Under the pieces are notes generated by a model. It searched no databases and had not been told where the DNA came from. It was given only the letters and a program-made list of their open reading frames with translations. Source: Escherichia coli (lineage in GTDB: Bacteria > Pseudomonadota > Gammaproteobacteria > Enterobacterales > Enterobacteriaceae). From it: a DNA stretch of 64,000 nucleotides. Numbering within the stretch: the first letter of the stretch is position 1; each line of letters opens with the position of its first letter. The stretch lies in the NCBI RefSeq assembly GCF_003018255.1, contig NZ_CP027440.1; one strand, given 5' to 3'. A program made the translations under genes and the position numbers. Below, piece after piece: positions 7,283-61,431 of this stretch.

Positions 7283-7470
7283 ATACAACAAAGCCGGGAA
7301 TTACCCGGCTTTGTTATGGAATAAGGCGGTGCCTAACTCGACGTTTCGCCCGATGGTTGATATAGCTACGCTGATATCAGAAGTTGGACGGCAGGCACCT
7401 TGTTGTGCGTCATTCGTATTTTATGTAGCACGTCCCGAAGGGGCTGACATAAGTCGGTGAATGAGCCACT
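7283..7470 (-). ncRNA. glmY: GlmY small RNA
   Basis: Sigma54 -24/-12 promoter immediately upstream, 5' region AGUGGCUCAUUCACC, 3' terminator hairpin CAAAGCCGGG-N5-CCCGGCUUUG at 7289-7313; located between purL and glrK. Ends approximate. Confidence 0.7.
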
Positions 7471-16420: not shown

Positions 16421-16650
16421 TCCACACCAGAGCTTTGACGACACCACTCGTTTCAATGGGGGAATTCAGTGGCATGGTGTAAAGCACAGCAAAATTGCCA
16501 ATAACGAAACCGATTTTAATGTACTTATCAAAAAGCGGTCACGTTAATCTTTTTATCAATGTCGATTTCTTCGTAAAGGCTCGCGTTTTTTATGTCAGAG
16601 ATTGCAAGTTGCTTGTACAGGATAACGAAATTGATCCATAATCATTTCTG

Positions 16651-16669
16651 TTGGAATCGTGTGCTGCAC
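16651..16669 (+). repeat. 19-bp direct repeat, copy 2 (TTGGAATCGTGTGCTGCAC)
   Basis: Matches copy 1 at 18 of 19 positions; 249 bp downstream of copy 1. Confidence 0.6.
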
Positions 16670-16689
16670 AAAATTAAAGTTGTAAAGTG

Positions 16690-16722
16690 AAAACCCCCGT
16701 TCCTTACCAGTTCGGGGGTTTT
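16690..16722 (-). terminator. Rho-independent terminator downstream of acpS
   Basis: AAAACCCCCG-N13-CGGGGGTTTT hairpin flanked by A/T runs (could act bidirectionally). Confidence 0.6.
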
Positions 16723-16747
16723 ACTTTATAAAGAGAACGGTATTTTT

Positions 16748-18610: not shown

Positions 18611-20223
<1,613 letters not shown>

Positions 20224-20228
20224 TCAGC

Positions 20229-20319
20229 ACACGAAACAGACCTGATATACATGGCTCGGCTAACTGCTTCACTGCAGTTTCAGTTTACCGGTATATGGGG
20301 ACCAACGCTGTTTCGTGTG
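20229..20319 (-). promoter_or_regulatory. rnc leader stem-loop (RNase III autoregulatory site)
   Basis: Long inverted repeat CACACGAAACAG...CTGTTTCGTGTG in the rnc 5' UTR. Confidence 0.5.
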
Positions 20320-20464
20320 CCGTGGCAACCTAGAGGTGCCAACCTTAAACTTCGGGGGAATATTCTATACACAACGACGGGGGATGTCGTTAGCCACGGG
20401 AGATTTATCTCATAAATAATTCACGTTGTCGCCATAACGGCGACAACGTGAACGAAGATGGCTA

Positions 20465-21454: not shown

Positions 21455-23254
<1,800 letters not shown>

Positions 23255-23451
23255 AAAGTATGATTATTGTGCCTTAATGCCCGGTTAACCAGGCTTTTAG
23301 AAGTCGCTGTTCTGAGCTTAACGTCTGTATTAATAGAAACGCCGCATTCTACACTACAACATTGAGGCGAGGAAATGTTCATACCGTATGGATTGTGGTA
23401 TCTGGAAACGTCCTCGCATTTGTTATGCAAAATGCAACAAAGCCAGTGAAA

Positions 23452-23931
23452 TCACTGGCTCGCGTCTTCCGAAGATGTTTCAAATCGCACAAGGCCAGGC
23501 GGCAAGGCCACGCTTAAGATGATCGGTTGCCATTCAGACCGGGCAGCAAACTTTCGAGAGCAGCCACGTGCAATCAGGAATCCACCAACGCCACCGAGAA
23601 TCGCACCGCATAATGCTGCAATATCTGAAGCAAAGAGTAGCTGAAATAGTGAAGCGATGAGGAATAGTCCCACCAACGGCGACATATAAACCAGTAATGC
23701 GGAGCTAAGCAGGCTGCCTTCGGCGATTCCTAATTCTACTTTTTGCCCCGGCACTAACGGCTCATCACAGGGTACGACAATGGTATGCGTGGTTTGCGGG
23801 CCAAGTTTATTCAACACGCGGCTACCGCAACCGGCACGTGAAGCGCAGCTGCTGCATGAGGCTTTAACATCACAACTAACCAGCGCCTGCCCGTTTTCCC
23901 AGGAGACGACGGTAGCCCACTCTTTGATCAT
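23452..23931 (-). CDS. rseC: SoxR-reducing system protein RseC
   Basis: 159-aa membrane protein, last gene of the rpoE operon. Confidence 0.9.
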   Translation of the reverse strand: MIKEWATVVSWENGQALVSCDVKASCSSCASRAGCGSRVLNKLGPQTTHTIVVPCDEPLVPGQKVELGIAEGSLLSSALLVYMSPLVGLFLIASLFQLLFASDIAALCGAILGGVGGFLIARGCSRKFAARSEWQPIILSVALPPGLVRFETSSEDASQ

Positions 23932-24884
23932 TGCGCTGCCCCGAACTTAATATTCTCGGCAATGCGTTTCGCCGTTTGCGGCGGCAGTTCACCGACAATG
24001 GTGATTTCGGCGTTATCACGTACGCTTGTACTGACGGTTCTGCGCCCGGTGCGCAACATCTGATCGGTGCTCGATGGCGTAGCGCGGTTAACGTTTACCG
24101 AGAAGCTGAATAATCCGTCGGAATAGAGACGTGATTCGATAGGCATGTTGTCCATCGTCGGTAGCGGACGTCGACTACTGGAAACTTCGCTAAAACCCTG
24201 TGGCAACCAGGTTGGCGTCCAGCTGAATTTAGCTTTTTCACCTACAGGAACAGAAAGCAACGGCGGCAAATTTGCCTTCGCCAGCGTCTGCATACTGCTG
24301 CTGATATCCTGATTGACATTAAAAGCAATCACGCGAAATTGTTCCAGCGTTTCACCATCGCGATCAAGGAGATCAACCCGCATCGGTAATTTCGATTCGG
24401 TGTCCATCCACACGATGTAGCTGTAGCGTGTACCATCTCGGGCAACCACACGAATGACTTCGCAAAGACGATCAGCAATACGCGTGCGCCCGACGGAGAT
24501 AAAGTCGTAGTAAGGAGAAAGGCGTTTGAAATCGGTATAGATGAGCGATGGTAGAGAATCAACAATGTAATCGCCATTAAGCGTGAACGGTTCAAGTCCC
24601 GGTTCAAAATAGCTGATTTCATTGCCGCGCTGTACCACTTCCCGGCGCGGGCCATCCATTTGCAACAATTGTGCAAGAGGACGGTTATCGAGGCGTGCAT
24701 GTCGATAACGCAGAGACTCAACACCCTGTTTATTGATGCTGATGAATGACAGCTCGTAATTCAGTGACTGACTGGCCAGGTTCATCTGCTGTAATAACGC
24801 CCCGGACGCGGGAGTGGCCGAGGCGTTAGCAGAGAATAACAGGCTACCTGTCACTAATGACATGGCAAACCAAAGTTGCTTCAT
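23928..24884 (-). CDS. rseB: Sigma-E regulatory protein RseB
   Basis: 318-aa periplasmic protein with signal peptide; overlaps rseC by 4 bp. Confidence 0.9.
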   Translation of the reverse strand: MKQLWFAMSLVTGSLLFSANASATPASGALLQQMNLASQSLNYELSFISINKQGVESLRYRHARLDNRPLAQLLQMDGPRREVVQRGNEISYFEPGLEPFTLNGDYIVDSLPSLIYTDFKRLSPYYDFISVGRTRIADRLCEVIRVVARDGTRYSYIVWMDTESKLPMRVDLLDRDGETLEQFRVIAFNVNQDISSSMQTLAKANLPPLLSVPVGEKAKFSWTPTWLPQGFSEVSSSRRPLPTMDNMPIESRLYSDGLFSFSVNVNRATPSSTDQMLRTGRRTVSTSVRDNAEITIVGELPPQTAKRIAENIKFGAAQ

Positions 24885-42021: not shown

Positions 42022-42141
42022 ATGCCTGGCAGTTCCCTACTCTCGCATGGGGAGACCCCACACTACCATCGGCGCTACGGCGTTTCACTTCTGAGTTCGG
42101 CATGGGGTCAGGTGGGACCACCGCGCTAAGGCCGCCAGGCA
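42022..42141 (-). rRNA. rrfG: 5S ribosomal RNA
   Basis: 120-nt match to E. coli 5S rRNA (one base differs from the sequence I recall). Confidence 0.9.
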
Positions 42142-42238
42142 AATTCTGTTTTATCAACACGTCTCGTTATGACATGTCGATTTAATCTGTATCAGGCTGA
42201 AAATCTTCTCTCATCCGCCAAAACATCTTCGGCGTTGT

Positions 42239-45143
<2,905 letters not shown>

Positions 45144-45336
45144 TCACAACCCGAAGATGTTTCTTTCGATTCATCATCGTGTTGCGAAAATTTGAGAGAC
45201 TCACGAACAACTTTCGTTGTTCAGTGTTTCAATTTTCAGCTTGATCCAGATTTTTAAAGAGCAAATATCTCAAACATCACCCGAAGATGAGTTTTGAGAT
45301 ATTAAGGCAGGTGACTTTCACTCACAAACCAGCAAG

Positions 45337-45412
45337 TGGCGTCCCCTAGGGGATTCGAACCCCTGTTACCGCCGTGAAAGGGCGGTGTCCTGGGCCTCTA
45401 GACGAAGGGGAC
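45337..45412 (-). tRNA. gltW: tRNA-Glu (UUC) in the 16S-23S spacer
   Basis: 76-nt exact match to GTCCCCTTCGTCTAGAGGCCCAGGACACCGCCCTTTCACGGCGGTAACAGGGGTTCGAATCCCCTAGGGGACGCCA. Confidence 0.9.
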
Positions 45413-45497
45413 GTATCAGTCTGCTTCGCAAGACGCCTTGCTTTTCACTTTCTATCAGACAATCTGTGTGAGCACTGCAAAGTACGCTTCTTTAAGG

Positions 45498-47039
<1,542 letters not shown>

Positions 47040-47482: not shown

Positions 47483-50056
47483 TTACTGGACGGCGACAAT
47501 CCGGTCTTCATTAACTTCCAGGCGAATAACTTTACCCGGAACCAATTCACCAGACAGTATTTGCTGTGCCAGCGGGTTTTCGATCTGCTGCTGGATAGCA
47601 CGTTTCAGCGGACGTGCACCATAGACCGGATCGTAACCGTTCTCGCTCAGCAGTTTCAGCGCCTCGTCAGAAATGTGGATTTCATAACCACGTTCTTCCA
47701 GACGTTTGTACAGACGTTTCAACTGAATCTGCGCAATCGACGCAATGTGCTGTTCACCCAGCGGATGGAAGACCACCACTTCATCGATACGGTTAATGAA
47801 TTCCGGACGGAAGTTATGGCTTACCACACCGAGCACCAGCTCTTTCATGTGCGCATAATCCAGTTCACCGAAGCGTTCCTGAATCAAATCGGAACCGAGG
47901 TTAGAGGTCATAATGACAACCGTATTACGGAAGTCGACCGTTCTCCCCTGCCCGTCAGTCAGACGCCCATCATCCAGTACCTGCAACAGAATGTTGAAGA
48001 CATCCGGATGCGCTTTTTCCACTTCATCCAGCAGGATGACGGAATACGGACGACGACGCACAGCTTCGGTCAGGTAGCCACCTTCTTCATAACCGACATA
48101 TCCCGGAGGCGCACCAACCAGACGAGACACCGAGTGTTTCTCCATAAACTCGGACATATCGATACGGACCATCGCCTCGTCGCTATCAAACATAAAGTTC
48201 GCTAGCGCCTTACAAAGCTCAGTTTTCCCCACACCGGTTGGGCCGAGGAACAGGAATGAACCAATCGGGCGATTTGGATCCGCCAGCCCCGCACGGCTAC
48301 GACGAATAGCGTTAGATACCGCATCAACCGCTTCGTTCTGACCAATAACGCGATGGTGCAGTTCTTGCTCCATACGCAGCAGTTTTTCGCGCTCGCTTTC
48401 CATCATGCGAGAAACCGGAATCCCCGTCCAACGCGCCAGCACTTCAGCAATTTCGGCATCGGTCACTTTATTACGCAACAGACGCATAGTTTTGCCTTCG
48501 AGCTGCGTTGCGGCTTCCAGTTGCTTTTCCAGTTCCGGGATTTTGCCGTATTGCAGTTCAGACATCCGCGCCAGGTCCCCCACACGGCGAGCCTGTTCAA
48601 TAGCGATTTTCGCCTGTTCCAGTTCCGCTTTAATGGTCTGTGTACCAGAAAGCGATGCTTTCTCTGCTTTCCACTCTTCTTCTAACTCGGAGTACTGACG
48701 TTCTTTGTCGCTCAGTTCTTCGTTGAGCATATCCAGGCGTTTTTTACTGGCTTCATCAGACTCTTTCATTAACGCCTGTTGTTCCAGTTTGAGCTGAATG
48801 ATACGGCGATCGAGTCGGTCGAGTTCTTCTGGTTTTGAGTCAATCTGCATACGAATGCTGGATGCTGCCTCATCGATCAGGTCGATGGCTTTATCTGGCA
48901 GCTGACGGTCAGCAATGTAGCGATGAGACAACGTCGCCGCTGCAACAATTGCCGGGTCAGTAATTTGCACATGGTGGTGCAGTTCGTAACGTTCTTTTAA
49001 GCCACGCAGAATAGCAATGGTGTCTTCAACAGAAGGCTCGGCAACAAACACTTTCTGGAAACGACGCTCCAGCGCAGCATCTTTTTCGATGTACTGGCGA
49101 TATTCGTCAAGCGTCGTGGCACCTACGCAGTGCAATTCACCACGCGCCAGCGCCGGTTTCAGCATGTTTCCGGCGTCCATTGCGCCATCGGCTTTACCCG
49201 CACCGACCATGGTATGTAATTCGTCGATAAACAGGATGACGTTGCCTTCCTGTTTGGCAAGATCGTTAAGCACGCCTTTTAAACGTTCTTCAAACTCACC
49301 GCGATATTTCGCCCCAGCCACCAGCGCGCCCATATCCAGCGCCAGTACGCGGCGGCCTTTCAACCCTTCCGGCACTTCGCCGTTGATAATACGCTGCGCC
49401 AGACCTTCAACGATGGCAGTTTTACCGACACCGGGTTCACCAATCAGTACCGGGTTATTTTTAGTACGACGTTGCAGCACCTGAATGGTACGGCGAATTT
49501 CTTCATCACGACCAATCACCGGATCGAGTTTGCCCTGTTCGGCTCGTTCGGTAAGGTCGATGGTATATTTTTTCAAAGCCTGACGTTGGTCTTCAGCACC
49601 TTGATCGTTCACGCTTTCACCTCCACGCATTTGTTCAATCGCTTGAGTAATGTTGGCGGTGGTCGCCCCTGCTGCTTTCAGGATGTCGGCCAGCGTGCCG
49701 CGAGACTCAAGTGCCGCCAGAACGAACAGTTCTGACGAGATAAAGTTATCACCACGTTTTTGCGCCAGCTTGTCGCAAAGATTAAGAACGCGCACCAGAT
49801 CCTGTGATGGCTGGACATCACCACCAGTACCTTCAACCTGTGGTAAACGATTTAATGCCTGATTGATATCTGTGCGCAACTGGCCAGCATTAATGCCAGC
49901 GGATGTTAATAAAGGACTAACCGAACCCCCTTCCTGATTCAGCAGGGCGCTCATTAAATGAAGTGGTTCGATGAATTGGTTGTCGTGCCCGAGTGCAAGT
50001 GATTGGGCATCGGCAAGAGCAAGCTGGAATTTATTAGTAAGACGATCCAGACGCAT
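47483..50056 (-). CDS. clpB: Disaggregase chaperone ClpB
   Basis: 857-aa product starting [18 protein letters not shown]; two AAA+ modules and coiled-coil M domain. Confidence 0.95.
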
Positions 50057-50094
50057 AACTCCTCCCATAACGGATCAAAGTTGCTACTGGAGAT

Positions 50095-50123
50095 TAAATG
50101 AGGTCATCCCTCAATTATTCAAG
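50095..50123 (-). promoter_or_regulatory. Sigma32 heat-shock promoter of clpB (CTTGAA-N14-CCTCATTTA)
   Basis: Match to the sigma32 consensus CTTGAAA/CCCCATNT with correct spacing. Confidence 0.55.
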
Positions 50124-50185
50124 GTTATTGACCAGATTAATGTGAAAAGAAAATCACGCGTACCGGATCGTCTTGATTCTTTAGG

Positions 50186-54866: not shown

Positions 54867-54922
54867 GTTGACAGCGTGAAAACAGTACGGGTACTGTACT
54901 AAAGTCACTTAAGGAAACAAAC

Positions 54923-54970
54923 ATGAAACACACACCGTTTTTCTTCGCATTCTTTTTTACCTTCCCCTGA
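54923..54970 (+). CDS. pheL: pheA leader peptide (15 aa, 7 Phe codons)
   Basis: Translates to [15 protein letters not shown]; immediately followed by the attenuator. Confidence 0.8.
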   Translation: [15 protein letters not shown]

Positions 54971-55016
54971 ATGGGAGGCGTTTCGTCGTGTGAAACAGAA
55001 TGCGAAGACGAACAAT

Positions 55017-55046
55017 AAGGCCTCCCAAATCGGGGGGCCTTTTTTA
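55017..55046 (+). terminator. pheA attenuator terminator
   Basis: AAGGCCTCCC-AAAT-CGGGGGGCCTT hairpin followed by a T-run, 20 bp upstream of the pheA ATG. Confidence 0.7.
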
Positions 55047-55068
55047 TTGATAACAAAAAGGCAACACT

Positions 55069-56271: not shown

Positions 56272-57393
56272 TTAGTGACGGTTGTCATTCGCCTGACGCA
56301 ATAACACGCGGCTTTCACTCTGAAAACGCTGTGCGTAATCGCCGAACCAGTGCTCCACCTTGCGGAAACTGTCAATAAACGCCTGCTTATCGCCCTGCTC
56401 CAGCAACTCAATCGCCTCGCCGAAACGCTTATAGTAACGTTTGATTAACGCCAGATTACGCTCTGACGACATAATAATGTCGGCATACAGTTGCGGATCC
56501 TGGGCAAACAGTCGCCCAACCATCGCCAGCTCAAGGCGGTAAATCGGCGAAGAAAGCGCCAGAAGTTGCTCAAGCTGAACATTTTCTTCTGCCAGGTGCA
56601 GCCCATAAGCAAAAGTAGCAAAGTGGCGCAGTGCCTGAATAAACGCCATATTCTGATCGTGCTCGACAGCGCTAATACGATGCAGCCGAGCGCCCCAGAC
56701 CTGAATTTGCTCCAGAAACCATTGGTATGCTTCCGGCTTACGTCCATCACACCAGACCACAACTTGTTTTGCCAGGCTACCGCTGTCCGGGCCGAACATC
56801 GGGTGTAACCCCAGCACCGGACCATCATGCGCCGCCAGCATGGCCTGTAATGGTCCATTTTTCACCGATGCCAGATCGACCAGAATACAATCTTTCGGTA
56901 AAGGCGGTAATTTGCCAATAACTTGTTCAGTAACGTGGATGGGCACACTAACAATCACCATTCCGGCATCGGCAACTATCTCAGCCGCTCGATCCCAGTC
57001 ATGTTGCTCCAGAATCCGCACCTGATAACCCGATAGTGTCAGCATCTTCTCGAACAGGCGTCCCATCTGACCGCCACCGCCGACGATAACCACCGGGCGC
57101 AGTGACGGACAAAGCGTTTTAAATCCTTTGTCGTTTTCACTGGAGTAAGATTCACGCATCACCCGACGCAAAACATCCTCAATCAGATCTGGCGGTACAC
57201 CCAGAGCTTCCGCCTCTGCACGACGCGAGGCCAACATAGATGCCTCGCGCTCCGGAACATAAATAGGCAGTCCAAAGCGGCTTTTCACCTCGCCCACTTC
57301 AGCAACCAGTTCCAGACGCTTCGCTAATAAATTCAGCAGCGCTTTATCGACTTCATCAATTTGATCGCGTAATGCGGTCAATTCAGCAACCAT
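56272..57393 (-). CDS. tyrA: Bifunctional chorismate mutase / prephenate dehydrogenase
   Basis: 373-aa ORF; convergent with pheA. Confidence 0.95.
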
Positions 57394-57403
57394 AATAAAC
57401 CTC

Positions 57404-58474
57404 TTAAGCCACGCGAGCCGTCAGCTGCCCGTTCAGATCCTGATGAATTTCACGCAGCAAGGCATCGGTCATTTCCCAGCTAATGCAGGCATCGGTTACG
57501 GATACACCGTATTTCATTTCACTGCGCGGTTGCTCGGAAGACTGATTGCCCTCGTGGATATTACTTTCGATCATCAGACCAATAATTGAGCGATTGCCAT
57601 CTTTGATTTGAGCAACCACGGATTCTGCCACCGCAGGCTGACGGCGATAATCTTTATTGGAATTACCGTGGCTGCAATCTACCATCAGAGACGGGCGCAG
57701 TCCCGCCTGTTCCATCTCTTTTTCACATTGCGCAACATCCGCAGGGCTATAGTTCGGCGCTTTACCACCGCGCAGGATCACATGCCCGTCCGGATTCCCC
57801 TGAGTTTGTAGCAACGCCACCTGCCCTGCCTGGTTAATGCCAACAAAACGGTGCGGCTGGGCGGCGGCACGCATAGCGTTAATAGCCGTTGCAAGGCTGC
57901 CGTCGGTGCCGTTTTTAAAACCAACCGGCATGGAAAGCCCGGAGGCCATTTCACGGTGTGTTTGCGATTCCGTTGTACGAGCACCAATTGCTGACCAGCT
58001 AAACAGATCGCCCAGGTATTGCGGGCTATTCGGATCTAACGCTTCCGTCGCCAGTGGCAGTCCCATATTCACCAGCTCAAGCAGCAATTTACGCGCGATC
58101 TGCAGCCCGGCTTCTACATCAAAAGAGCCATCCATATGGGGATCGTTAATCAACCCTTTCCAACCGACAGTGGTACGGGGTTTTTCAAAATAGACGCGCA
58201 TTACCAGATAGAGGCTATCGCTGACCTCTGCGGCAAGGGCTTTAAATCGACGAGCATATTCCAGAGCAGTTTCCGGATCATGAATGGAACAAGGACCACA
58301 TACTACCAACAGACGAGGATCGCGCCCGGCGATAATATCTGAAATGGTTTTACGCGAGTCAGCAATCTGGGCTTCCTGTTGCAGGCTTAATGGAAAAGCG
58401 GCCTTCAGTTGTTCCGGAGTCATTAAAACTTGTTCGTCGGTAATATGTACGTTATTCAGCGCGTCTTTTTGCAT
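57404..58474 (-). CDS. aroF: Tyr-sensitive DAHP synthase
   Basis: 356-aa product starting [15 protein letters not shown] (ORF track start trimmed). Confidence 0.95.
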
Positions 58475-58568
58475 GATGGCGATCCTGTTTATGCTCGTTT
58501 GCGATAGTTGATCCTCAGCGAGGATGACGTAACGATAACACATAAAGTAAAGTTTTCAATCCATATTT

Positions 58569-58638
58569 CGTACATTTTTCTTTACACAAGCAATTTATTC
58601 GCGCTTTTAACCCTTGTTTATGTATAAATAAATTTACA
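58569..58638. promoter_or_regulatory. TyrR boxes in the aroF promoter region
   Basis: Minus-strand TGTAAA-N6-TGTACG (58569-58586) and TGTAAA-N6-TATACA (58621-58638) match the TGTAAA-N6-TTTACA consensus. Confidence 0.5.
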
Positions 58639-58683
58639 CCACCTTTGAAAACAATCCGCTATGCTTTGAAAAAGGAGAAAGAA

Positions 58684-59049
58684 ATGATGAAAAAGTTTAT
58701 CGCCCCCTTGTTGGCTTTACTGGTTAGCGGATGTCAGATTGATCCTTATACTCACGCGCCAACCTTGACCAGCACCGACTGGTATGATGTTGGTATGGAA
58801 GATGCGATATCGGGCAACGCCATAAAAGATGACGATGCATTTAGCGATTCACAGGCGGATCGCGGTCTATACCTTAAAGGATATGCCGAAGGACAAAAGA
58901 AAACTTGCCAGACCGATTTTACTTATGCCCGAGGACTTTCCGGTAAAAGCTTTCCTGCCAGCTGCAACAATGTTGAAAATGCCAGCCAACTGCATGAAGT
59001 ATGGCAAAAAGGGGCTGATGAAAATGCCAGCACAATACGATTAAATTAA
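58684..59049 (+). CDS. yfiL: Putative lipoprotein YfiL
   Basis: 121-aa product starting MMKKFIAPLLALLVSGCQ (lipobox). Confidence 0.8.
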   Translation: MMKKFIAPLLALLVSGCQIDPYTHAPTLTSTDWYDVGMEDAISGNAIKDDDAFSDSQADRGLYLKGYAEGQKKTCQTDFTYARGLSGKSFPASCNNVENASQLHEVWQKGADENASTIRLN

Positions 59050-59198
59050 TTAAACCCCCACAAATAAATTAAACATGAGATTCTACTCATTGTGTTTTAT
59101 TTCTCACATTGATGACGACCGCATGAAAGAATGATATTTTAATGAGCATTCTGAAAAAATATCGATGCATTTCGAGCGAAGATGGTGAGGATCCCTGA

Positions 59199-59717
59199 AT
59201 GCGTTTTTCTCACCGACTGTTCTTACTGCTGATTCTCCTGCTGACGGGAGCACCAATACTCGCTCAGGAACCTTCTGACGTTGCGAAAAACGTGCGTATG
59301 ATGGTTTCCGGTATTGTCAGTTACACCCGCTGGCCTGCGCTATCAGGGCCACCAAAGTTATGTATCTTTTCATCTTCACATTTTAGTAACGCCCTACAAG
59401 AGAATGGCACGACATCTTTGCCTTATCTACCTGTCATCATTCACACTCAACAAGAGGCGATGATTTCAGGCTGCAATGGTTTTTATTTTGGCAACGAGTC
59501 ACCGACATTCCAGATGGAATTAACCGAACAATATCCGTCAAAGGCGTTATTATTAATTGCCGAACAAAATACCGAGTGCATTATTGGTAGCGCCTTTTGT
59601 CTAATCATCCACAATAATGACGTCAGATTTGCCGTAAACCTGGATGCCTTATCGCGTAGCGGTGTAAAGGTCAACCCGGATGTCTTAATGCTCGCACGGA
59701 AGAAAAATGATGGATAA
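59199..59717 (+). CDS. yfiR: Periplasmic repressor of YfiN/DgcN
   Basis: 172-aa secreted protein; first gene of yfiRNB; overlaps yfiN by 11 bp. Confidence 0.85.
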
Positions 59718-60933
59718 CGATAATTCTCTTAATAAGCGCCCCACGTTTAAAAGAGCATTACGCAACATCAGTATGACCAGCATATTTATCACTATGATGC
59801 TGATCTGGTTGCTGCTTTCCGTGACCTCGGTGCTGACCCTGAAACAGTACGCGCAAAAAAACCTGGCACTGACAGCAGCAACAATGACTTACAGTCTGGA
59901 AGCAGCTGTCGTTTTTGCCGATGGCCCTGCAGCAACTGAAACACTGGCAGCGCTGGGCCAGCAAGGCCAATTTTCAACTGCAGAAGTGCGTGATAAGCAG
60001 CAAAATATTCTGGCATCCTGGCATTACACCCATAAGGAACCAGGCGATACTTTCAGCAATTTCATAAGCCACTGGCTCTTCCCTGCCCCCATCATTCAGC
60101 CGATTCGTCACAATGGTGAAACCATTGGCGAAGTACGCTTAACTGCTCGCGACAGTTCAATCAGCCATTTTATCTGGTTTTCGCTCGCTGTCCTGACCGG
60201 TTGTATTCTGCTGGCATCAGGCATCGCAATTACCCTCACCCGCCATTTGCACAATGGCCTGGTGGAAGCGCTGAAAAATATCACCGATGTCGTACATGAT
60301 GTGCGTTCTAACCGCAATTTTTCCCGACGAGTTTCGGAAGAACGTATCGCTGAGTTTCACCGCTTCGCTCTCGACTTCAACAGTCTGCTGGATGAAATGG
60401 AAGAGTGGCAGCTTCGTTTACAGGCCAAAAATGCGCAGCTTTTACGTACCGCGCTACATGACCCATTAACCGGGCTGGCTAACCGCGCAGCGTTTCGTAG
60501 CGGCATCAACACGTTGATGAACAATTCCGATGCCCGAAAAACGTCGGCGTTACTATTTCTTGATGGCGATAATTTCAAATATATCAATGATATCTGGGGT
60601 CATGCGACGGGCGATAGAGTCTTGATTGAAATCGCAAAACGGTTAGCTGAATTTGGCGGGCTGCGACATAAAGCATACCGCCTGGGCGGCGATGAATTCG
60701 CGATGGTGCTCTATGATGTACAGTCGGAATCTGAAGTGCAGCAGATATGCTCAGCACTGACACAAATCTTTAATCGCCCGTTTGATCTTCATAATGGTCA
60801 TCAGACCACCATGACATTAAGCATTGGTTACGCGATGACCATTGAGCATGCCTCTGCGGAAAAATTACAAGAGCTGGCCGATCACAATATGTATCAGGCC
60901 AAACACCAGCGTGCCGAAAAGCTGGTGAGATAA
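59707..60933 (+). CDS. dgcN: Membrane diguanylate cyclase (GGDEF)
   Basis: 408-aa ORF with two TM segments, periplasmic region, HAMP and GGDEF domain (RLGGDEF). Confidence 0.9.
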
Positions 60934-60948
60934 CAAGGATATATCGAT

Positions 60949-61431
60949 ATGATAAAGCACCTGGTAGCACCCCTGATTTTCACCTCACTAATACTGACTG
61001 GCTGCCAGTCCCCTCAGGGAAAGTTTACTCCTGAGCAAGTCGCCGCTATGCAATCTTATGGATTTACTGAATCCGCCGGCGACTGGTCGCTGGGCTTATC
61101 AGATGCCATTCTGTTCGCAAAAAATGACTACAAATTGCTCCCGGAAAGCCAGCAACAGATCCAAACCATGGCAGCCAAATTGGCCTCGACAGGGCTAACG
61201 CATGCCCGTATGGATGGACACACCGACAACTATGGTGAAGACAGTTACAACGAAGCCTTATCATTGAAACGGGCGAATGTCGTGGCCGATGCATGGGCTA
61301 TGGGTGGACAAATTCCGCGCAGCAATCTCACCACACAGGGTTTAGGAAAAAAATATCCCATAGCCAGTAACAAGACCGCCCAGGGCCGCGCCGAGAACCG
61401 CCGCGTCGCAGTGGTGATTACTACCCCTTAA
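60949..61431 (+). CDS. yfiB: OmpA-family outer-membrane lipoprotein YfiB
   Basis: 160-aa ORF with lipobox LTGCQS and OmpA-C-like peptidoglycan-binding motif (NRRVAVVI). Confidence 0.9.
   Translation: MIKHLVAPLIFTSLILTGCQSPQGKFTPEQVAAMQSYGFTESAGDWSLGLSDAILFAKNDYKLLPESQQQIQTMAAKLASTGLTHARMDGHTDNYGEDSYNEALSLKRANVVADAWAMGGQIPRSNLTTQGLGKKYPIASNKTAQGRAENRRVAVVITTP

What the first reader, a model, noticed from the sequence alone, without database searches (positions are those of the whole stretch)
58569..58638. Two TyrR boxes shared by divergent aroF and yfiL
Two matches to TGTAAA-N6-TTTACA lie upstream of aroF in the 209-bp spacer that also has to contain the yfiL promoter. TyrR repression of aroF could therefore also influence the divergent lipoprotein gene.
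Basis: inference. Interest (0 to 1): 0.2.

Follow-up and report, generated by a model that had tools for sequence, protein, structure and literature searches.

The report
Known TyrR operator of aroF
The two motifs are real and are part of the long-known three-site binding region through which the tyrosine-sensing repressor TyrR shuts off the E. coli aroF-tyrA operon; whether the same sites also affect the neighbouring lipoprotein gene yfiL is plausible from the geometry but has never been tested.

Summary
The window is E. coli chromosome. Both matches are at the stated coordinates: 58569-58586 has 2 mismatches and 58621-58638 has 1. The aroF-yfiL spacer is 209 bp. Chance does not explain the pair: 1 of 20,000 composition-matched shuffles gives two such sites.

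By sequence they are TyrR boxes 1 and 3 of the classical aroF-tyrA operator. It contains the aroF -35, lies 23 bp centre to centre from box 1, and is the most conserved element in the spacer.

Box 1 and box 3 keep a 52-53 bp spacing (five helical turns) in six genera. These include Klebsiella, Cedecea and Cronobacter, where no yfiL lies next to aroF. The sites therefore belong to aroF.

On the yfiL side the only conserved element is a sigma-S-like -10, CTATGCT (58659-58665). In Escherichia, Citrobacter and one Enterobacter-labelled genome, box 3 sits 29.5-31.5 bp upstream of it, at about -42.5 of the predicted start. TyrR could therefore touch the yfiL promoter. In the two most divergent yfiL lineages box 3 is much further upstream. 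I found no data linking yfiL to TyrR.

Verdict: a known element plus a minor untested hypothesis. Low interest.

The parts
58621..58638 (.). TyrR box 3, the upstream strong box (aroF-sense TGTAAATTTATTTATACA). Its centre is 58629.5.
   Evidence: It has 1 mismatch to the consensus. Its half-sites are identical to K-12; the only difference falls in the central N6. It is present 52-53 bp from box 1 in Escherichia, Citrobacter, Klebsiella, Cronobacter, Cedecea and L014.
58569..58586 (.). TyrR box 1, the promoter-proximal strong box (aroF-sense TGTAAAGAAAAATGTACG). Its centre is 58577.5.
   Evidence: It has 2 mismatches. The half-sites TGTAAA and TACG are nearly invariant in 15 taxa, while the N6 and the flanks vary.
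58546..58563 (.). Its centre is 58554.5, 23 bp from box 1, and it contains the aroF -35.
   Evidence: It has 4 mismatches but keeps G2 and C17. Ten of its 18 columns are invariant across 15 taxa, making it the most conserved block of the spacer. The alternative register 58541-58558 (3 mismatches) lacks C17 and its outer half-site is not conserved.
58532..58559 (-). aroF sigma-70 promoter: -35 TTGAAA (58559-58554), 16-bp spacer, -10 TATCGT (58537-58532). The predicted start is near 58525.
   Evidence: It is the only promoter-like site found in 58350-58800. The same hexamers are listed for aroF in the RpoD genomic SELEX table of PMC3946193. It is conserved across genera.
57404..58474 (-). aroF, the tyrosine-sensitive DAHP synthase (356 aa). 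The true start is at 58474.
   Evidence: ORF list; RefSeq annotation of matching genomes; homologues.
56272..57393 (-). tyrA, chorismate mutase/prephenate dehydrogenase, the second gene of the regulated operon.
   Evidence: ORF list; K-12 annotation.
58659..58665 (+). CTATGCT, the predicted -10 of the yfiL promoter. It is sigma-S-like, with C at -13. The predicted start is about 58672.
   Evidence: It is the only plus-strand element conserved in all 12 yfiL-bearing taxa, Buttiauxella included. There is no canonical -35 at 16-18 bp (direct reading). This is a prediction; no mapped start was found.
58684..59049 (+). yfiL, a DUF2799 lipoprotein. The signal peptide ends in the lipobox LVSGC.
   Evidence: ORF list; annotation; PF10973 assigned to homologues.

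Best explanation
The two motifs, together with a third weak one, form the classical TyrR operator of the aroF-tyrA operon.

Mechanism, taken from established TyrR biology and not tested here. TyrR dimers occupy the strong boxes 1 and 3. When tyrosine and ATP are bound, TyrR forms a hexamer. The hexamer also fills weak box 2, which contains the aroF -35, and bridges to box 3 five helical turns upstream. This blocks RNA polymerase and shuts off synthesis of the tyrosine-sensitive DAHP synthase and of TyrA.

Shown here: the presence, number, spacing and evolutionary conservation of the three boxes, and their overlap with the aroF promoter.

Inferred: occupancy by TyrR in this strain.

Any effect on yfiL would be a by-product of box 3 lying about 42.5 bp upstream of the predicted yfiL start. 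If there is an effect, the most likely one is modest interference with polymerase binding, that is, mild repression. TyrR binds strong boxes without a cofactor (recalled from the TyrR literature, not checked here), so such repression would be largely independent of tyrosine and somewhat stronger with it.
For: - The region is E. coli aroF/yfiL in 5425 of 5426 complete genomes.
- The half-sites are identical to K-12. All 11 window-versus-K-12 differences in the spacer fall outside the half-sites.
- Two or three such sites essentially never arise by chance: 1 and 0 of 20,000 shuffles.
- Box 2 contains the -35 of the only sigma-70-like promoter in the region.
- The box 1 to box 2 spacing is 23 bp in 15 of 17 taxa. 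The box 1 to box 3 spacing is 52-53 bp in 15 of 17 (62 bp in Buttiauxella, 87 bp in Shimwellia).
- The half-sites are conserved while the N6 centres and the 34-bp inter-box DNA are not. Majority fraction is 0.79-0.97 for the half-sites against 0.57-0.72 for the rest.
- Box 3 is retained where yfiL is absent from the locus.
- Literature: tyrosine-mediated repression of aroF-tyrA by hexameric TyrR (PMC10170061); aroF-tyrA is among the most conserved members of the TyrR regulon (PMC5343134); Andrews et al. 1991 on the position of TyrR boxes in aroF (reference seen, not read).
Against: - Nothing contradicts it.
- No binding or expression data exist for this strain.
- The numbering of the boxes and the register of box 2 rest on my memory of the TyrR literature plus conservation.
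- tyrR itself is not in the window.
Confidence: 0.95

Rival explanations
1. Dual use. This does not exclude the best explanation. TyrR bound at box 3 also directly controls the divergent yfiL promoter. It could repress by occluding the -35 region, or activate as a class-II-like activator from about -42.5.
For: - Box 3 ends 20 bp upstream of the conserved CTATGCT, which puts its centre near -42.5 of the predicted start.
- The distance from the box 3 centre to the -10 is 29.5-31.5 bp in Escherichia, Citrobacter and L014, although the intervening sequence is almost fully diverged. The yfiL 5' UTR length varies more, with TATGCT at -22 to -30 from the start codon.
- Precedent: TyrR regulates the divergent akr and ipdC genes of Enterobacter cloacae (PMC4374768, title and abstract; also cited).
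Against: - No mapped yfiL start was found.
- The overlap is missing in Buttiauxella, where box 3 is about 84 bp from the -10. It is also missing in L024, where box 3 is at -105.5 from the start codon and there is no CTATGCT.
- Box 3 is equally conserved where yfiL is absent.
- One E. coli genome carries 7 extra C in exactly this interval.
- yfiL behaves as a stationary-phase/sigma-S gene and was 2.3-fold up with sigma-E. It appears in no TyrR regulon list I could search, nor in the held text or supplement of a tyrR CRISPRi single-cell study. All of this negative evidence is weak.
Confidence: 0.3
2. The matches are chance occurrences of an AT-rich palindrome in an AT-rich spacer and have no function.
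For: Loose matches (3 mismatches or fewer) are not enriched in the window as a whole: 19 against 24 expected.
Against: - 1 of 20,000 composition-matched shuffles gives two such sites.
- The half-sites and their spacing are conserved across at least eight genera, while the flanking DNA is not.
Confidence: 0.01
3. The boxes are primarily yfiL regulatory sites, and aroF control is secondary.
For: Box 3 is physically closer to the yfiL start codon (54.5 bp) than to the aroF start codon (155.5 bp).
Against: - The position of box 3 tracks aroF and not yfiL. It is at a constant distance from box 1 and the aroF ATG in taxa lacking yfiL. Its distance from yfiL is variable in Buttiauxella and L024.
- Boxes 1 and 2 sit on the aroF promoter.
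Confidence: 0.02

Closest known systems
aroF-tyrA TyrR operator of E. coli K-12 (boxes 1, 2, 3)
   Same: It is the same locus. All three boxes have half-sites identical to K-12, and the promoter hexamers and spacings (23 bp and 52 bp) are the same.
   Different: Only strain-level substitutions in the non-contacted N6 centres: box 1 has G where K-12 has T, and box 3 has T where K-12 has C, in aroF sense. There are also differences in the inter-box DNA.
akr-ipdC divergent pair of Enterobacter cloacae UW5, regulated by TyrR (Coulson & Patten 2015, PMC4374768)
   Same: TyrR sites lie in a spacer between two divergently transcribed genes, and one regulator acts on both.
   Different: There, regulation of both genes was measured. 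Here nothing has been measured for yfiL, and the sites are placed for aroF.
TyrR action at the aroP regulatory region, where TyrR stimulates a divergent promoter (P3) that interferes with aroP transcription (recalled from the Pittard laboratory's work; not checked here)
   Same: It shows that TyrR bound near back-to-back promoters in E. coli can influence transcription in the opposite direction.
   Different: At aroP the divergent promoter has no known gene product and serves repression. At aroF/yfiL the two predicted starts are about 147 bp apart and do not overlap.
Sigma-S-dependent promoters with a CTATACT-type -10 and a degenerate -35
   Same: The yfiL upstream region has a conserved CTATGCT with C at -13 and no canonical -35. 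yfiL rises at entry to stationary phase and has been linked to sigma-S.
   Different: Sigma-S dependence of this promoter and its start site were not verified here.

Membership tests
TyrR box (TyrR operator site) | An 18-bp palindrome resembling TGTAAA-N6-TTTACA. | tested here: met
   Box 3 has 1 mismatch, box 1 has 2 and box 2 has 4, the last being typical of a weak box.
TyrR box (TyrR operator site) | Symmetrical G and C at positions 2 and 17 (G-N14-C). I recall these from the TyrR literature as essential. | tested here: met
   All three boxes keep G2/C17 in the window. Boxes 1 and 3 keep them in all 17 taxa and box 2 in at least 15 of 17. The alternative box 2 register 58541-58558 fails this test.
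TyrR box (TyrR operator site) | More than chance, and conserved at orthologous promoters. | tested here: met
   1 of 20,000 shuffles for two sites. A phylogenetic footprint across Escherichia, Citrobacter, Klebsiella, Cronobacter, Cedecea, Buttiauxella, Shimwellia and L014.
Tyrosine-mediated TyrR repression module (strong box plus adjacent weak box on the promoter, plus a distal strong box in helical phase) | A weak box directly adjacent to a strong box and overlapping the promoter, with a distal box an integral number of turns away. | tested here: met
   The box 2 centre is 23 bp from box 1 and the box contains the -35 TTGAAA. Box 3 is 52-53 bp (about 5 turns) from box 1 in 15 of 17 taxa and 62 bp (about 6 turns) in Buttiauxella. 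The 87 bp in Shimwellia is not integral.
Tyrosine-mediated TyrR repression module | TyrR binds the sites, and aroF expression falls with tyrosine in a tyrR-dependent way. | not testable with these tools
   This is established for K-12 in the literature (reference). Sequence identity of the half-sites to K-12 makes the same behaviour very likely here.
Divergent gene pair co-regulated through shared TyrR sites (akr-ipdC type) | A TyrR site positioned on or next to the second gene's promoter. | tested here: inconclusive
   The box 3 centre is about -42.5 from a predicted yfiL start in Escherichia, Citrobacter and L014, but not in Buttiauxella or L024. No mapped start was available.
Divergent gene pair co-regulated through shared TyrR sites (akr-ipdC type) | Expression of the second gene depends on TyrR or on aromatic amino acids. 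| not testable with these tools
   No report was found in full-text searches or in four supplement searches.

The most novel reading that the evidence does not exclude
In the Escherichia/Citrobacter lineage the aroF distal operator (box 3) has been co-opted as a regulatory site for the sigma-S-type yfiL promoter, centred at about -42.5. TyrR would then tie expression of an envelope lipoprotein to tyrosine availability. No terminator was detected between yfiL and yfiR, so read-through might extend this to the downstream yfiR-dgcN-yfiB c-di-GMP module.
Probability: 0.2. Interest if true: 0.35.

Novelty: already known. Interest (0 to 1): 0.12.

Why it matters
As it stands this is a textbook operator, so it mainly shows that the first-stage reader can recognise real regulatory sites. 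If the yfiL link were real, it would add one poorly characterised lipoprotein gene to the TyrR regulon. It would also give a second example, after akr-ipdC, of TyrR acting in both directions from one spacer. That would be a modest extension of a well-studied regulon, of interest mainly to people working on YfiL/YfiBNR envelope signalling.

Tried and rejected
- Box 2 in the register of the 3-mismatch consensus hit (58541-58558). Rejected in favour of 58546-58563. The first register lacks C17 and its outer half-site is not conserved. The second keeps G2/C17, is invariant at 10 of 18 columns and is always 23 bp from box 1.
- The yfiL promoter TTTTCA-17-TTTTAT listed in the RpoD SELEX table (PMC3946193). 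It is only a best-match prediction. In this window its -10 reads TTTTCT, and it lies on boxes 2 and 1 without independent conservation.
- TTGAAA (58645-58650) as the yfiL -35. It is only 9 bp from TATGCT, so rejected. TTTACA of box 3 as the -35. The spacer is 20-22 bp, too long for sigma-70 (direct reading).
- Searches for a mapped yfiL start or for TyrR-dependent yfiL expression. Nothing was found in full-text searches. Nothing was found in the supplements of PMC3415461, PMC5343134, PMC4447067 or the mapSPLiT preprint. PMC4161252 has no supplement held.
- Rfam scan. No RNA family lies in the spacer.
- Terminator scan between yfiL and yfiR. None was found on the plus strand, so read-through cannot be excluded.
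- The aroF leader hairpin as a significant structure. Its folding energy is no better than shuffles, z = 0.04, although the stem is conserved.
- L012, L022 and L023, fetched as 'divergent' YfiL homologues, turned out to be E. coli-like loci with frameshifted or variant yfiL and added nothing.

Full report
**Identity of the region.** The 361 bases around the finding match 5425 of 5426 complete E. coli genomes. One match is at 100% identity, and the annotation there is aroF and yfiL. The ORF list and the K-12 annotation give the following layout:
- tyrA, 56272-57393 (-)
- aroF, 57404-58474 (-), with the true start MQKDALN at 58474
- yfiL, 58684-59049 (+)
- yfiR, 59199-59717 (+)
- dgcN/yfiN, 59707-60933 (+)
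- yfiB, 60949-61431 (+)

**The observation.** TGTAAA-N6-TTTACA matches at 58621-58638 with 1 mismatch and at 58569-58586 with 2 mismatches. These are the only sites with 2 or fewer mismatches in the 64 kb. Loose matches are not enriched window-wide (19 against 24 expected). The pair, however, is far beyond chance. Among 20,000 dinucleotide-preserving shuffles of the 65%-AT spacer, only 1 had one site with 1 mismatch or fewer plus another with 2 or fewer. None had a third site.

**A third box.** The consensus scan reports a 3-mismatch hit at 58541-58558. A scan requiring G at position 2 and C at position 17 picks a register 5 bp further upstream in the aroF sense: 58546-58563 (aroF-sense TGGATTGAAAACTTTACT). 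This site is present with its centre exactly 23 bp from box 1 in 15 of 17 taxa. It is also the most conserved block of the whole spacer, with 10 of 18 columns invariant across 15 taxa from eight genera. It contains the -35 hexamer of the only sigma-70-like promoter found in 58350-58800: TTGAAA (58559-58554), 16 bp, TATCGT (58537-58532) on the minus strand. The same hexamers are listed for aroF in the RpoD genomic SELEX table (PMC3946193). From my memory of the TyrR literature these are aroF boxes 1 (58569-58586), 2 (58546-58563) and 3 (58621-58638).

**Comparison with K-12 and other E. coli.** The window differs from K-12 at 11 positions in the spacer, and all of them lie between 58580 and 58641. 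None falls in a TyrR half-site. Two fall in the non-contacted N6 centres of boxes 1 and 3. With four more E. coli genomes the variable columns again cluster between and around the boxes. The promoter, box 2 and the DNA from 58648 to the yfiL ATG are invariant. One strain (JJ1886) has a weakened box 1 that still keeps G2/C17.

**Comparison across genera.** I collected aroF upstream regions from these sources:
- five further Escherichia lineages
- three Citrobacter species
- Buttiauxella
- Klebsiella pneumoniae
- a genome labelled Enterobacter asburiae
- Cronobacter
- Cedecea
- Shimwellia

Boxes 1 and 3 are present in all of them. The centre-to-centre distance is 52-53 bp in 15 of 17 sequences, which is five helical turns. 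It is 62 bp in Buttiauxella and 87 bp in Shimwellia. The half-sites are conserved (majority fraction 0.79-0.97). The N6 centres (0.60-0.72) and the 34 bp between boxes 1 and 3 (0.57) are not.

Box 3 keeps its place in genomes that have no yfiL beside aroF. In Klebsiella, Cedecea and Shimwellia the divergent neighbour is yfiR. In Cronobacter the upstream gene is co-directional. The boxes are therefore positioned for aroF, not for yfiL.

**Mechanism.** Established knowledge, summarised in the reviews I could read, is as follows. Tyrosine converts TyrR from dimer to hexamer. The hexamer represses aroF-tyrA and aroLM by blocking access of RNA polymerase (PMC10170061). aroF-tyrA is among the most conserved members of the TyrR regulon (PMC5343134). 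The anatomy found here fits that mechanism exactly: a weak box on the -35, a strong box directly adjacent, and a second strong box five turns away. Occupancy in this strain is inferred from sequence identity with K-12.

**The yfiL side.** The only plus-strand element conserved in all 12 yfiL-bearing sequences is CTATGCT (58659-58665). This includes Buttiauxella, whose YfiL is only 43% identical. It resembles a sigma-S-type -10, with C at -13, and has no canonical -35 at 16-18 bp (and direct reading). This agrees with three published observations:
- yfiL rises at entry into stationary phase in O157:H7 (PMC2241611).
- yfiL has been linked to the sigma-S response (PMC5311112).
- yfiL was 2.3-fold induced by sigma-E overproduction (PMC2731931).

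If this is the -10, the start is near 58672 and box 3 is centred at about -42.5. The distance from the box 3 centre to TATGCT is 29.5-31.5 bp in Escherichia, Citrobacter and L014, although the intervening bases have diverged almost completely. This is mildly suggestive of a spacing constraint.

Against a designed link:
- In Buttiauxella the same -10 lies about 84 bp from box 3.
- In the divergent locus L024 box 3 is at -105.5 from the start codon and no CTATGCT is present.
- One E. coli genome carries 7 extra C in the interval.
- I found no report of TyrR- or tyrosine-dependent yfiL expression.

There is a precedent for TyrR acting on both genes of a divergent pair: akr-ipdC in Enterobacter cloacae (PMC4374768). 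I therefore rate a measurable TyrR effect on yfiL at roughly 0.2-0.3. If there is an effect, it is most likely mild repression by occlusion of the -35 region.

**Novelty and score.** The feature is an already-known operator. The only new element is an untested and modest hypothesis about a neighbouring gene, now sharpened by a predicted promoter position. Interest is low.

Noticed in passing
L018 (E. coli ESDR8, NZ_CM169472.1), aligned to window 58638-58642: This genome has a run of 12 C (7 extra bases) between TyrR box 3 and the yfiL -10-like element. If real, it would shift box 3 by two-thirds of a helical turn relative to yfiL. It may equally be a homopolymer assembly error.
   Followed up: no
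window 58511-58525 (aroF-sense AUCCUCGCUGAGGAU): A 6-bp stem with a 3-nt loop sits exactly at the predicted 5' end of the aroF mRNA. The CCTC...GAGG stem is conserved across nearly all taxa while the loop varies. Its folding energy is not better than shuffles. It could be a 5'-terminal stabilising hairpin. The rest of the aroF leader (CTATCGCAAACGAGC, ACAGGATCGCCATCATG) is also strikingly conserved.
   Followed up: partly
L013, L015, L016, L017, L011, L024 versus window 58684-61431: yfiL is patchily distributed. It is present beside aroF in Escherichia, Citrobacter, L014, Buttiauxella and L024. It is absent in Klebsiella, Cedecea, Shimwellia and Cronobacter. Buttiauxella has yfiL without yfiR-dgcN-yfiB, and Klebsiella has yfiR-dgcN without yfiL. 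So yfiL is not an obligatory part of the YfiBNR module.
   Followed up: partly
window 58543 (upstream in-frame ATG); protein P0108: The longest aroF ORF starts at 58543 (379 aa), and a 379-aa version exists in public databases (P0108, a cluster of 39 member sequences). That start lies 6 bp upstream of the -10 hexamer, within the -35/-10 spacer of the promoter, so it is an over-extended annotation. The conserved start is 58474 (356 aa).
   Followed up: partly
window 59050-59198: No intrinsic terminator was detected on the plus strand between yfiL and yfiR. Transcription from the yfiL promoter might therefore read into yfiR-dgcN-yfiB.
   Followed up: no
L008 (NZ_JADCSA010001282.1, 'Nocardioides malaquae', 233-bp contig): A tiny low-coverage contig in an actinobacterial assembly encodes the E. 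coli YfiL N-terminus at 100% identity. This is almost certainly E. coli contamination of that assembly.
   Followed up: no
L020 (E. coli JJ1886), aligned to window 58569-58587: Box 1 in this ST131 strain reads CGTAAAGAAATGTGTACG (3 mismatches against 2), keeping G2/C17. The operator half-sites are therefore not entirely invariant within E. coli.
   Followed up: no
window 7323-7470, 16650-16727, 20139-20353, 23136-23967, 42024-47039, 50037-50175, 54922-55047: Rfam hits elsewhere in the window are all ordinary for this part of the E. coli chromosome: GlmY, OhsC, rncO, AsrC, an rRNA operon with a tRNA, RyfD and the pheA leader.
   Followed up: no
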